A DNA stretch of 64,000 nucleotides from Desulfocapsa sp. (GTDB lineage Bacteria; Desulfobacterota; Desulfobulbia; Desulfobulbales; Desulfocapsaceae): NCBI GenBank assembly GCA_013792135.1, contig VMSP01000124.1, forward strand, positions 16,480 to 80,479, written 5' to 3'. The notes beneath the pieces were generated by a model. It was not told the DNA's origin and did no database searches. It worked only from the letters and a program-made list of their open reading frames with translations. This document shows positions 9,737 through 49,618 of the stretch, piece after piece; the stretch's first letter is position 1, and every line of letters starts with the position of its first letter. The translations under genes and the position numbers were made by a program.

Positions 9737-9776
9737 AAAAAAAGCCGAACTGCCTCTTTGATATGGCAGCCCGGCT
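9737..9776 (-). terminator. Candidate rho-independent terminator of the upstream cytochrome operon
   Basis: Minus strand reads agccgggctgcc-atatcaaaga-ggcagttcggct followed by T7-8 (plus-strand A-run 9737-9743). Confidence 0.55.
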
Positions 9777-9911
9777 AATTCACTTCTGAATCCCGAGGCA
9801 TTCCGTCCCTGCTTCACAACAGGTTTGGCTTTATTTCATATTGGTGAATGGAAAAATCTTGTCACATTCTTACTACACATTATGATATCTTTTTAATATA
9901 TAAAGTTTTCT

Positions 9912-47878: not shown

Positions 47879-48004
47879 GTATAGCTTTCCTGCCATTTGA
47901 TTGCAAGAATGGTCTTTCCTTTGCTTTACATTTTGCTGATCATTGGCTAAAGTGCTGTCGATTATTAAATGATATTTTCTAAAGGAATTCTTCCGGTGTC
48001 GTCC

Positions 48005-48200
48005 TGATTTTCAGGTCGGTGAAAAGGGAATACGGTGCAAAACCGTAACGTTGGGCCAACGCTGTGAGCGGGGACAAGGACTGCATGATGTCACTGTCTG
48101 TGATCCGGGTAACCGGATGATGGGTGGGAAGGCGTGGTCTGAGGCTGATCCGTGAGTCAGAAGACCTGCCGGAAGAAAAAAGGAATTCTTGTCCATGGAA
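48005..48200 (+). promoter_or_regulatory. Cobalamin (B12) riboswitch aptamer
   Basis: ggtgaaaagggaatacggtgcaaaaccgtaacgttgggccaacgctgtgagcgg matches the conserved GGTG.AA.GGGAA...GGTG.AAA.CC....C.G.CC.....CTGT core. B12-box-like gtcactg. 3' element gagtcagaagacctgcc (canonical AGCCAGGAGACCTGCC). P1 pairing caggtc (48012-17) / gacctg (48164-69). Confidence 0.8.
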
Positions 48201-48253
48201 GTCCGTATTGCGCCCTGAGGGTTGATCCCTGAGGCGCGGTACGGACTTTTTTT
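48201..48253 (+). terminator. Riboswitch expression-platform terminator
   Basis: A 14-bp stem (gtccgtattgcgcc / ggcgcggtacggac, with two G-U pairs) plus an inner 4-bp stem, followed by T7 at 48247-48253. Confidence 0.8.
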
Positions 48254-48289
48254 ATGCTCGGACGAAAAATAAGAAAAGGAAGGTTGACC

Positions 48290-49618
48290 ATGAAGACACA
48301 GATAGAACTGGCACGCGAGGGCATCATTACCGAGGCGATGAAAAAAGTAGCCATGGATGAGGGCTTTGGCCTTGATCCGGAGACCATCCGTCAGCGGGTG
48401 GCGGATGGTCATATTGTCATTGCCGTCCATCCCAACCGGCCTTTACAGAAGGTGGTGGGGATCGGCAAGGGACTGCGGACCAAGGTGAATGCCTCCATCG
48501 GCACCTCCTCCGATATCTCGGATATTGAGCTGGAGGTACGCAAGGCCAAGGTGGCTGAGGCGGAACAGGCAGACACCCTTATGGAGCTTTCCACCGGCGG
48601 TGATCTTAATCTGGTGCGGCAGCGGGTCCTTGGAGCCTGTAACCTGCCTGTCGGCAATGTACCCCTCTATCAGGCTTTTTCCGAGGCCAGCCGCAAATAT
48701 CATAATCCCAATAAGCTGGATAGCGAGTATCTTTTTGAGCTGATAGAGCGGCAGCTATCAGACGGGATATCTTTTATGGCCATCCATTGCGGGATCAACC
48801 GTTTTTCCATCGAGCGGTTGCGCAAGCAGGGCTATCGTTATGGTGGCTTGGTCTCTAAGGGTGGAACATTTATGGTCTCGTGGATGGAGTATAATAACCG
48901 GGAAAATCCCCTCTATGAGCAGTTTGATCGGGTATGCTCCCTCATGAAAAAGTATGACGCGGTTCTCTCGCTTGGTAACGGGATCAGGGCCGGGGCCATT
49001 CATGACAGCCATGACCGGGCCCAGATGGCAGAGATGGTGATCAACTGCGAACTGGCTGAGATCGGCCGTGACATGGGCTGTCAGATGATGGTGGAGGGAC
49101 CTGGCCATGTGCCCCTCGATGAGATTGAAGGTAATATTATGCTGGAAAAACGGATGAGCGGTGGCGCACCATACTATGTGCTCGGACCACTTCCCGCTGA
49201 TTCAGGAGCTGGCTATGATCACATCACTGCAGCCATCGGTGCGGCTAGCTCGGCCCGTTTTGGTGCCGATCTTATCTGCTATATAACGCCAGCCGAACAT
49301 CTGGCCCTGCCCAATGAAGATGATGTTCGGGAGGGGGTTCGGGCTACGAGACTGGCCGCCAGGATTGGCGATATTGCAAAGTATCCGGACCGTCGTGAAC
49401 AGGAAAAAAAGGTCGCCCTTTCCCGGCGTGATACCAACTGGAAGGAACATTTTCCCTTACTGATGTTTCCCGACAAGGCCCAGGAGGTGAGAGATAGTCG
49501 TACCCCAGAAAATATTGGCACCTGCACCATGTGCGGTGATTTTTGTGCCATGGAACGGGGACTTTCTCTTTTTCAGGATGATATCAAGGGGGATAAGAAG
49601 ACGTTAGGCTGCAGATAA
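48290..49618 (+). CDS. bzaF: ThiC-family radical SAM enzyme; context suggests 5-hydroxybenzimidazole synthase BzaF rather than HMP-P synthase ThiC
   Basis: Start ATG at 48290 with RBS AAAGGAAGG; the ORF-track ATG at 48254 lies inside the terminator tail. ThiC-family blocks: GIGKGLRTKVNASIGTSSD, MELSTGGD, VEGPGHVPLDEIE, GYDHITAAIG, CYITPAEHL, C-terminal CTMCGDFCA. It is preceded by a cobalamin riboswitch, not a TPP riboswitch. Confidence 0.85.
   Translation: MKTQIELAREGIITEAMKKVAMDEGFGLDPETIRQRVADGHIVIAVHPNRPLQKVVGIGKGLRTKVNASIGTSSDISDIELEVRKAKVAEAEQADTLMELSTGGDLNLVRQRVLGACNLPVGNVPLYQAFSEASRKYHNPNKLDSEYLFELIERQLSDGISFMAIHCGINRFSIERLRKQGYRYGGLVSKGGTFMVSWMEYNNRENPLYEQFDRVCSLMKKYDAVLSLGNGIRAGAIHDSHDRAQMAEMVINCELAEIGRDMGCQMMVEGPGHVPLDEIEGNIMLEKRMSGGAPYYVLGPLPADSGAGYDHITAAIGAASSARFGADLICYITPAEHLALPNEDDVREGVRATRLAARIGDIAKYPDRREQEKKVALSRRDTNWKEHFPLLMFPDKAQEVRDSRTPENIGTCTMCGDFCAMERGLSLFQDDIKGDKKTLGCR

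What the first reader, a model, noticed from the sequence alone, without database searches (positions are those of the whole stretch)
48005..49618. Cobalamin riboswitch controlling a ThiC homologue: probable BzaF (anaerobic benzimidazole lower-ligand synthesis), not thiamine synthesis
The leader has the B12-riboswitch core, a B12-box-like element, the 3' AGxCAGxAGACCTGCC signature and a strong terminator, not the TPP (THI-box) pattern expected for thiC. ThiC paralogues (BzaA/B/F) that convert AIR to 5-hydroxybenzimidazole are established to sit behind cobalamin riboswitches in anaerobes. Automated pipelines usually label them ThiC. Here the gene stands alone, with no bzaC/D/E or cobT nearby. 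That would imply a 5-hydroxybenzimidazolyl cobamide, or partner genes elsewhere.
Basis: partly seen in the sequence, partly recalled or inferred. Interest (0 to 1): 0.6.

Follow-up and report, generated by a model that had tools for sequence, protein, structure and literature searches.

The report
B12-switched BzaF gene mislabelled ThiC

Summary
Rfam finds a full-length Cobalamin riboswitch at 47977-48187 (98.7 bits, cut-off 31.5). A strong terminator follows (about 48198-48247, T7 at 48247-48253), then a ThiC-family gene at 48290-49618 (442 aa). No TPP riboswitch was found anywhere in the genome.

The BzaF reading is supported.
- The genome (99.99% complete) has a second, better-scoring thiC on another contig, only 43% identical.
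- The window protein has Asn230 where ThiC has the AIR-binding Asp (AtThiC D383). This is the published ThiC/BzaF difference. It also has Ser69 where ThiC has AtThiC N228.
- It groups (support 1.0) with the RefSeq-named BzaF of Trichlorobacter lovleyi (67% identity).
- All 80 orthologues carry the Asn. 77 have the riboswitch signature directly upstream. Some sit in cobT-cbiB or btu operons.
- The genome has cbiD and cobC-cobU-cobT-cobS. No BluB, no BzaD/E-type protein and no clear BzaC were found.

The predicted product is 5-hydroxybenzimidazole, giving a [5-OHBza]cobamide as in Geobacter.

This is a known system (Hazra 2015). Shelton 2018 already lists BzaF in Desulfocapsa and Desulfopila. 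This scan noted the same pattern in at least 30 other genomes. Interest is low.

Side lead: another B12 riboswitch in this genome (contig C92) controls only a conserved 36-aa ORF.

The parts
47925..47953 (+). Candidate sigma-70 promoter, TTTACA-17-TAAAGT, 24 nt upstream of the aptamer
   Evidence: Consensus scan, (9 of 12 matches). The number of sites is not above shuffles, so this is a candidate only.
47977..48187 (+). Cobalamin riboswitch aptamer (RF00174, full length)
   Evidence: 98.7 bits, E 1.9e-23, model 1-189. Motif coordinates. The same family lies directly upstream of 10 of 13 orthologues tested, and heads the operon in the other 3.
48198..48253 (+). Expression platform: intrinsic terminator, a roughly 23-bp hairpin followed by T7 (48247-48253)
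   Evidence: hairpin about -33 to -39 kcal/mol. A hairpin plus T-run is present in 78 of 78 leaders, and stem sequences differ between lineages while staying paired.
48278..48283 (+). Ribosome-binding site GGAAGG, 6 nt before the ATG
   Evidence: Read from the sequence.
48290..49618 (+). bzaF (5-hydroxybenzimidazole synthase, ThiC-family radical SAM), 442 aa. Carries S69, N230, E269 and Cys412/415/419.

Best explanation
The gene at 48290-49618 encodes BzaF, the ThiC-paralogous radical SAM enzyme. BzaF rearranges aminoimidazole ribotide (AIR) into 5-hydroxybenzimidazole, the lower-ligand base of anaerobically made cobamides.

It is a single-gene transcription unit under an OFF-type cobalamin riboswitch. 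When the cobamide coenzyme is plentiful it binds the aptamer (47977-48187). The terminator (about 48198-48253) then forms and transcription stops before bzaF. When cobamide is scarce, transcription reads through and BzaF is made.

The base would then be activated by the genome's single CobT and joined to the corrin by CobS. CobT and CobS lie, with CobU and CobC, in a cluster on contig C80; a cbiD on contig C41 points to de novo corrin synthesis.

No bzaD/E-type gene, no bluB and no clear bzaC are present. The predicted cofactor is therefore 5-hydroxybenzimidazolyl cobamide (Factor III), as in Geobacter sulfurreducens. Thiamine pyrimidine is made by the separate canonical ThiC on contig C175.

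Shown: the riboswitch, the terminator, the paralogy, the signature residues, the clade membership and the gene inventory. Inferred: the enzyme's product, the OFF logic, the antiterminator (not identified) and the final cobamide.
For: Riboswitch and terminator:
- Present in the window.
- 77 of 80 orthologue leaders have the riboswitch signature directly upstream. All 78 leaders counted (77 plus the window) have a hairpin and T-run.

Two PF01964 genes in a 99.99%-complete genome:
- C175 copy: 645 bits on Pfam, 646 and 613 bits on the NCBIfam ThiC equivalogs.
- Window copy: 570, 560 and 511 bits on the same models. The two are 43% identical.

Signature residues:
- PMC12661338 and PMC11117688 state that AtThiC Asp383, which H-bonds AIR N3, is Asn in BzaF.
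- The window protein has N230 aligned to CcThiC D374, which equals AtThiC D383.
- N is found in 83 of 83 clade members; D in 59 of 59 ThiC-type sequences.
- S69 replaces AtThiC N228, the AIR 3'-OH ligand.
- E269 and the three cluster cysteines are conserved.

Named reference and tree:
- Trichlorobacter lovleyi SZ pGLOV01 WP_012471694.1 is annotated '5-hydroxybenzimidazole synthase BzaF'. It is also in Shelton's BzaF HMM list at 648 bits against a cut-off of 564.
- It is 67% identical to the window protein. The best ThiC-annotated plasmid gene is at most 45% identical.
- It joins the window clade with support 1.0 and shares 8 of its 9 signature residues (Ala, not Ser, at position 161).

Cob context of orthologues:
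- L063: riboswitch-cobT-cobD/Q-cbiB-bzaF.
- L088: riboswitch-btuB-btuF-btuC-btuD-btuF-bzaF-cbiB-cobD.
- cobT lies within 6 kb in 5 loci.

Distribution: the ThiC type is found in nearly all of 41 relatives, while the BzaF type is patchy across the order.

Genome inventory:
- cobC-cobU-cobT-cobS present; cbiD present.
- BluB: 33 bits against a cut-off of 150.
- TIGR04385: 68 bits against 450.
- No homologue of the T. lovleyi bzaF-adjacent methyltransferase.

JGI names 82-86%-identical proteins '5-hydroxybenzimidazole synthase'.
Against: - No biochemical data exist for this protein or any Desulfobulbales orthologue.
- NCBIfam has no BzaF model, and the protein passes both short-form ThiC equivalog cut-offs. 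HMM naming therefore says ThiC.
- AtThiC D383N keeps partial ThiC activity (PMC11117688). The Asn alone does not exclude HMP-P synthesis.
- Shelton's BzaF, BzaA and BzaB HMMs could not be run here.
- The antiterminator was not identified.
- Related sulfate reducers are reported to make 5-methylbenzimidazolyl cobamide rather than the 5-OH form: Desulfobulbus propionicus, and Desulfobacterium autotrophicum, which has BzaF. The final ligand is therefore uncertain.
Confidence: 0.9

Rival explanations
1. The gene is a second, B12-regulated ThiC isozyme that still makes HMP-P for thiamine.
For: It passes the NCBIfam ThiC equivalog cut-offs: 559.6 against 410, and 511 against 460. AtThiC D383N retains partial ThiC activity. 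The genome has no TPP riboswitch, so thiamine genes must be regulated in some other way.
Against: - A better-scoring canonical thiC exists in the same genome and in nearly all relatives.
- Two AIR-contacting residues differ from every ThiC examined: S69 and N230.
- The protein clusters with named BzaF, not with ThiCs from thiamine operons.
- Orthologues are embedded in cobT/cbiB/cobD and btu operons, never in thi operons.
- No rationale is known for B12 control of thiamine pyrimidine synthesis.
Confidence: 0.04
2. The gene is a BzaA- or BzaB-type subunit that needs a second ThiC-like partner to make 5-hydroxybenzimidazole.
For: BzaA and BzaB are also ThiC paralogues behind cobalamin riboswitches. 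The protein gives 488 bits on the BzaB model TIGR04386.
Against: - 488 bits is far below the BzaB cut-off of 700, and lower than the genome's own ThiC gets on the same model (560 bits).
- The genome has only two PF01964 genes, on different contigs, and one of them is canonical ThiC.
- The protein clusters with a single-gene BzaF.
Confidence: 0.02
3. The riboswitch acts mainly on translation, or is a relic, and not by transcription termination.
For: No antiterminator helix was identified. The best alternative pairing with the terminator's 5' arm is weak (-18 kcal/mol).
Against: - A strong hairpin plus T-run lies between aptamer and RBS in 78 of 78 leaders. Stem sequences differ between lineages while staying paired.
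- The RBS lies about 25 nt beyond the T-run and is unpaired in the predicted folds.
- The aptamer scores 85-113 bits wherever it lies directly upstream of the orthologue.
Confidence: 0.04

Closest known systems
BzaF / HBI synthase (5-hydroxybenzimidazole synthase, EC 4.1.99.23). Characterised in Geobacter sulfurreducens GSU3005 and Desulfuromonas acetoxidans (Hazra 2015; Mehta 2015). The named reference used here is Trichlorobacter lovleyi SZ WP_012471694.1.
   Same: - ThiC-fold radical SAM of about 440 aa with the C-terminal Cys cluster.
- Asn at the AtThiC D383 position.
- A single gene, not a tandem pair.
- Coexists with a true thiC.
- Linked to a cobalamin riboswitch or to cob genes.
- 67% identical to the T. 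lovleyi protein and in the same well-supported clade.
   Different: Here, and in about 35 of 81 loci, the gene is an isolated riboswitch-controlled monocistron between uvrC and an ABC ATPase gene, not part of a cob cluster. No BzaC-like methyltransferase lies next to it, unlike in T. lovleyi. Activity is untested.
ThiC (phosphomethylpyrimidine synthase): Caulobacter 3EPM, Arabidopsis 4S25
   Same: Same Pfam family (PF01964) and same substrate-binding scaffold. E269 corresponds to AtThiC E422. The cluster cysteines are conserved. About 40-45% identity.
   Different: - N230 in place of D383, and S69 in place of N228.
- Seven further clade-specific substitutions: E99, S161, A164, A234, C253, S290, I329.
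- Cobalamin instead of TPP control.
- Never found in thi operons.
- The genome has its own ThiC elsewhere.
BzaA/BzaB (Eubacterium limosum, Moorella thermoacetica), NCBIfam TIGR04386
   Same: ThiC paralogues for the same step of anaerobic benzimidazole synthesis, also behind cobalamin riboswitches.
   Different: They occur as an adjacent pair, usually with cobT and bzaC/D/E. Here there is one gene only, and the BzaB model score of 488 is below its cut-off of 700.
Cobalamin riboswitch RF00174 with an intrinsic-terminator expression platform
   Same: Full-length match with all conserved blocks. The terminator lies downstream.
   Different: Nothing unusual was noted. It is one of six cobalamin riboswitches in the genome. 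Four of the others precede cobamide or cobalt uptake and chelatase genes; the sixth precedes only a 36-aa ORF.

Membership tests
BzaF (5-hydroxybenzimidazole synthase) | ThiC-family radical SAM fold with a C-terminal Cys cluster | tested here: met
   PF01964 at 570 bits. Cys412, 415 and 419 are invariant in 83 of 83 clade members.
BzaF (5-hydroxybenzimidazole synthase) | Asn in place of the AIR-N3-binding Asp of ThiC (AtThiC D383), as published in PMC12661338 | tested here: met
   N230 aligns to CcThiC D374, which equals AtThiC D383. N in 83 of 83 clade members, D in 59 of 59 ThiC-type sequences. The named BzaF has N, and four named ThiCs have D.
BzaF (5-hydroxybenzimidazole synthase) | Clusters with accepted BzaF sequences, apart from ThiC | tested here: met
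   Clade with T. lovleyi WP_012471694.1 (RefSeq-named BzaF, also in Shelton's list), SH-like support 1.0. 67% identity to it against 43% to the genome's own ThiC. The characterised GSU3005 and D. acetoxidans sequences themselves were not available.
BzaF (5-hydroxybenzimidazole synthase) | Score above the trusted cut-off (564.1 bits) of the Shelton et al. 2018 BzaF HMM | not testable with these tools
   The HMM exists only as supplementary text, too long to retrieve within the look-up cap. Species of related genera (Desulfocapsa sulfexigens, Desulfopila aestuarii) have proteins above that cut-off in the paper's table. MAGs labelled with those species names carry orthologues 82-86% identical to the window protein (L021, L044).
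BzaF (5-hydroxybenzimidazole synthase) | Single gene, not a bzaA-bzaB tandem; coexists with a separate thiC | tested here: met
   The genome has two PF01964 genes on different contigs, and the other is canonical ThiC.
BzaF (5-hydroxybenzimidazole synthase) | Association with cobalamin riboswitches or cobamide genes | tested here: met
BzaF (5-hydroxybenzimidazole synthase) | Converts AIR to 5-hydroxybenzimidazole | not testable with these tools
   Needs an enzyme assay, or heterologous expression with LC-MS.
ThiC (HMP-P synthase) | Conserved AIR-binding Asp (AtThiC D383) and Asn (AtThiC N228) | tested here: not met
   N230 and S69 stand at these positions. The N228 mapping rests on a constant numbering offset of 9 between CcThiC and AtThiC.
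ThiC (HMP-P synthase) | NCBIfam equivalog score above cut-off | tested here: met
   PRK13352: 559.6 against 410. TIGR00190: 511 against 460. These models do not separate BzaF: L029, L063, L088 and P0122 also pass. This explains the ThiC label in databases.
ThiC (HMP-P synthase) | TPP riboswitch or thiamine-operon context | tested here: not met
   No TPP riboswitch in the window or the genome. The neighbours are uvrC and an ABC ATPase gene.
BzaB (TIGR04386) | Score at or above 700 bits, with an adjacent bzaA | tested here: not met
   488 bits. No adjacent paralogue.
Cobalamin riboswitch (RF00174) | Covariance-model score above gathering, over the full model | tested here: met
   98.7 bits against 31.5, model positions 1-189.

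The most novel reading that the evidence does not exclude
In this Desulfobulbales lineage 5-hydroxybenzimidazole may not be the final lower ligand. Desulfobulbus propionicus and Desulfobacterium autotrophicum are reported to make 5-methylbenzimidazolyl cobamide, and D. autotrophicum has BzaF. The biosynthetic route to that base is unknown. The lone bzaF here could feed an undiscovered, unlinked tailoring pathway from 5-OH to 5-methyl benzimidazole. No BzaD/E-type protein, no clear BzaC and no conserved neighbour gene were found.
Probability: 0.12. Interest if true: 0.5.

Novelty: new member of a known kind. Interest (0 to 1): 0.12.

Why it matters
The practical value is a corrected annotation. 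In this genome, and in hundreds of Desulfobulbales MAGs, the gene labelled 'ThiC' is the marker for anaerobic benzimidazole (B12 lower-ligand) synthesis. These organisms should therefore be scored as producers of a benzimidazolyl cobamide, probably [5-OHBza]Cba, in community B12 budgets, and not as carrying two thiamine genes. The residue pair S69/N230 against N/D separates the two paralogues cleanly across 142 sequences and could serve as a simple annotation rule. Nothing here changes what is known about the family.

Tried and rejected
- **BzaF papers.** Hazra 2015 (PMC4553811) and Mehta 2015 (PMC4753784) are not held. I used PMC12661338, PMC11117688 and Shelton 2018 instead.
- **Shelton's BzaF HMM.** Rebuilding it from the supplement would need more look-ups than the cap allows.
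- **Names for representative proteins.** Cluster look-up gave none.
- **Second homologue search.** I queried with the 'Geopsychrobacteraceae' orthologue L029, hoping for RefSeq-named Geobacter BzaFs. It returned only the same Desulfobulbales-like set.
- **BzaB reference.** None of 10 representatives reached the BzaB cut-off. No BzaA or BzaB sequence could be placed in the tree; they are excluded by gene count and model score.
- **Antiterminator.** Only a weak candidate pairing was found.
- **Recurrent partner genes.** A survey around bzaF in 81 loci found only syntenic uvrC and an ABC ATPase gene, plus unrelated genes (GGDEF-PilZ, AFOR, DAHP synthase).
- **Regulatory RNA upstream of the true thiC.** No Rfam hit and no conserved sequence across families.
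Full report
**Observation**

Rfam (cmscan, gathering thresholds) gives two hits in the window. One is a full-length Cobalamin riboswitch (RF00174) at 47977-48187 on the + strand: 98.7 bits against a threshold of 31.5, E 1.9e-23.
- P1 strands at 47988-47996 and 48169-48177.
- GGTGCAAAACC at 48034-48044.
- GTCACTG at 48090-48096.
- AGTCAGAAGACCTGCC at 48155-48170.

A long G+C-rich hairpin (about 48198-48247, loop TTGAT) is followed by T7 at 48247-48253. The leader region folds far better than shuffled sequence (z = -5.4, 0 of 200 shuffles as good).

The open reading frame listed from ATG 48254 over-extends. The RBS GGAAGG (48278-48283) and the N-terminus MKTQ(I/L)E, shared by 80 orthologues, place the start at 48290. 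The product is 442 aa and matches PF01964 (ThiC radical SAM) at 570 bits.

No TPP riboswitch was found in the window or in the 4.2-Mb, 99.99%-complete genome at E <= 0.001.

The neighbours are unrelated: uvrC upstream on the opposite strand, and an ABC ATPase gene and a PAS histidine kinase gene downstream on the opposite strand.

**ThiC or BzaF?**

NCBIfam would name the protein ThiC. It scores 559.6 on PRK13352 (cut-off 410) and 511 on TIGR00190 (cut-off 460). The only Bza model in the library, BzaB TIGR04386, gives 488 bits against a cut-off of 700. That library has no BzaF model, and other members of the clade (L029, L063, L088, P0122) pass the ThiC models too. The label is therefore uninformative. 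Five lines of evidence point to BzaF.

1. *A second, canonical thiC.* The genome has a second PF01964 gene on contig C175. It scores higher on every ThiC model: 645 bits on Pfam, 646 and 613 on NCBIfam. It is only 43% identical to the window protein. Among 41 related genomes, this high-scoring type is found in nearly all. The lower-scoring type is found in 18 of 20 same-genus genomes but only 6 of 16 from other families of the order. That is the pattern expected of a housekeeping gene beside an accessory one.

2. *Active-site residues.* PMC12661338 and PMC11117688 state that AtThiC Asp383 hydrogen-bonds N3 of AIR, and is one of the few active-site differences from BzaF, where it is Asn. In the alignment to Caulobacter ThiC, the window protein has N230 opposite D374, which corresponds to AtThiC D383.
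   - Asn is present in 83 of 83 clade members. Asp is present in 59 of 59 ThiC-type sequences.
   - AtThiC N228, which binds the AIR 3'-OH, is Ser69 in 82 of 83 clade members and Asn in 53 of 59 ThiCs. This mapping rests on a constant numbering offset.
   - Seven more positions separate the two groups.
   - E269 (AtThiC E422) and the cluster cysteines are retained.

3. *Phylogeny with a named reference.* A tblastn search of PLSDB found one plasmid gene at 67% identity: Trichlorobacter (Geobacter) lovleyi SZ pGLOV01 WP_012471694.1. It is annotated '5-hydroxybenzimidazole synthase BzaF', lies next to cobT and a methyltransferase gene, and appears in Shelton's BzaF table at 648 bits against a trusted cut-off of 564. 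All ThiC-annotated plasmid genes are at most 45% identical.
   - The FastTree analysis used 13 orthologues, 10 ThiC paralogues from relatives, 53 full-length representatives of 50%-identity clusters, and four named ThiCs.
   - Three of the named ThiCs come from thiamine gene clusters. The fourth (B. thuringiensis) carries a TPP riboswitch, which serves as a positive control.
   - The window protein groups with the named BzaF at support 1.0. The genome's own paralogue groups with the ThiCs.

4. *Conserved regulation and context.* 77 of 80 orthologues (77-98% identity; mostly Desulfobulbales, plus Holophaga and two MAGs labelled Geopsychrobacteraceae) have the riboswitch 3' signature 105-200 nt upstream. 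Rfam confirmed the riboswitch in 13 of 13 loci tested. The three exceptions have it about 5 kb upstream, heading an operon. Two of them were annotated:
   - L063: riboswitch-cobT-cobD/cobQ-cbiB-bzaF.
   - L088: riboswitch-btuB-btuF-btuC-btuD-btuF-bzaF-cbiB-cobD.

   cobT lies within 6 kb of bzaF in five loci. None of the annotated neighbours is a thiamine gene.

5. *Source annotation.* JGI names several 82-86%-identical proteins '5-hydroxybenzimidazole synthase'. Shelton et al. list BzaF in Desulfocapsa sulfexigens, Desulfopila aestuarii, Desulfofustis and Desulfobulbus species.

**Mechanism**

A hairpin followed by a T-run lies between aptamer and start codon in 78 of 78 leaders. Stem sequences differ between lineages while staying paired. 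The expression platform is therefore an intrinsic terminator, and the switch is most likely OFF-type: cobamide bound, termination, no BzaF. I did not identify the antiterminator, so that step is inferred.

Downstream steps are encoded elsewhere in the genome: a cobC-cobU-cobT-cobS-(cobD/Q) cluster on contig C80 and cbiD for anaerobic corrin synthesis.

No BluB (33 bits against 150), no BzaD/E-type TIGR04385 protein (68 against 450), no convincing BzaC, and no homologue of the T. lovleyi bzaF-adjacent methyltransferase were found. By the rules of Hazra 2015 and Shelton 2018, bzaF alone predicts 5-hydroxybenzimidazolyl cobamide, as measured in G. sulfurreducens and Pelobacter propionicus.

One caveat applies. 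Desulfobulbus propionicus and the BzaF-carrying Desulfobacterium autotrophicum are reported to make 5-methylbenzimidazolyl cobamide. The final ligand in this lineage is therefore not certain.

**Rivals**

- A B12-regulated ThiC isozyme is not strictly excluded by sequence, because AtThiC D383N keeps some activity. It is contradicted by the second thiC, the clade, the residues and the cob context.
- BzaA/BzaB is excluded by gene count and model score.

**Novelty**

This is the known system in a new genome. Earlier notes of this scan record the same pattern in at least 30 other genomes, and every follow-up shown judged it an ordinary re-annotation.

In about 35 of 81 loci the gene is an isolated riboswitch-controlled unit between uvrC and an ABC ATPase gene. 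That is a detail of gene organisation, not a new mechanism.

**Side observations**

The genome has six cobalamin riboswitches. Four of the other five, judged from the sequences of their downstream ORFs, precede TonB-dependent receptor, BtuFCD-like, CbiM-like and CobN-like genes. These four were not run against Pfam.

The sixth, on contig C92, precedes only a 36-aa ORF with its own RBS and terminator. The unit is conserved, and the ORF stays open, in 16 same-genus genomes. It has no Pfam match.

The canonical thiC has no recognisable or conserved leader element in this lineage.

Noticed in passing
Own genome contig C92:45269-45879 (locus L008 1150-1760, minus strand); outside the window: A sixth cobalamin riboswitch (96.8 bits) controls only a 36-aa ORF, MILQERVMVKMMLFSIKDWDSFQRVMRSWRRGGLGC. 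The unit has a terminator-like hairpin after the aptamer, an AGGAGG RBS and its own strong terminator, and it converges on an FeS/NrfD-like operon. The unit is conserved, and the ORF stays open (34-38 aa), in 16 same-genus genomes at 75-91% DNA identity. No Pfam match at E <= 10. It reads as a B12-repressed micro-protein of unknown function.
   Followed up: partly
window 9762-9839 (-): c-di-GMP-I riboswitch (RF01051), 57.5 bits against a gathering score of 35. The downstream gene was not examined.
   Followed up: no
Own genome C175:76282-77613 (L001 1489-2820) and the whole genome: The canonical thiC has a leader of about 390 nt with no Rfam hit. The genome has no TPP riboswitch at all, although it is 99.99% complete and has thiG. 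Upstream regions of the orthologous thiC in 10 Desulfobulbales families share no conserved block. Only a divergent thiC type (L114) has a TPP riboswitch. Thiamine genes in this lineage appear not to be riboswitch-controlled.
   Followed up: partly
window 48254-48289: The ORF list and the database cluster P0002 (454 aa) start the gene at ATG 48254, directly after the terminator T-run. The conserved N-terminus and the RBS put the true start at 48290, so the gene model is 12 codons too long.
   Followed up: yes
L029, L031 (MAGs labelled Geopsychrobacteraceae): Their bzaF is 84% identical to the window protein and 86-88% to other Desulfobulbales-type sequences. The BzaF of the Geobacterales bacterium T. 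lovleyi is only 67% identical. This suggests horizontal transfer of bzaF or a mislabelled MAG.
   Followed up: no
Own genome C158:37832-46604 (-) and L130 11443-19305: Behind a cobalamin riboswitch lies a run of ORFs ending in a 1300-aa CobN-like ORF, with small ORFs before it. By order and size it resembles the T. lovleyi pGLOV01 cluster (tandem riboswitches, TonB receptor, DUF2162, ExbB, DUF2149, CobN). The own-genome ORFs were not run against Pfam, so the DUF and ExbB assignments are inferred from that resemblance. This looks like a conserved B12-regulated uptake/chelatase module.
   Followed up: no
G013 (a same-genus genome): It has three PF01964 genes: one ThiC-type (643 bits) and two BzaF-type (562 and 554 bits), a possible bzaF duplication.
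   Followed up: no
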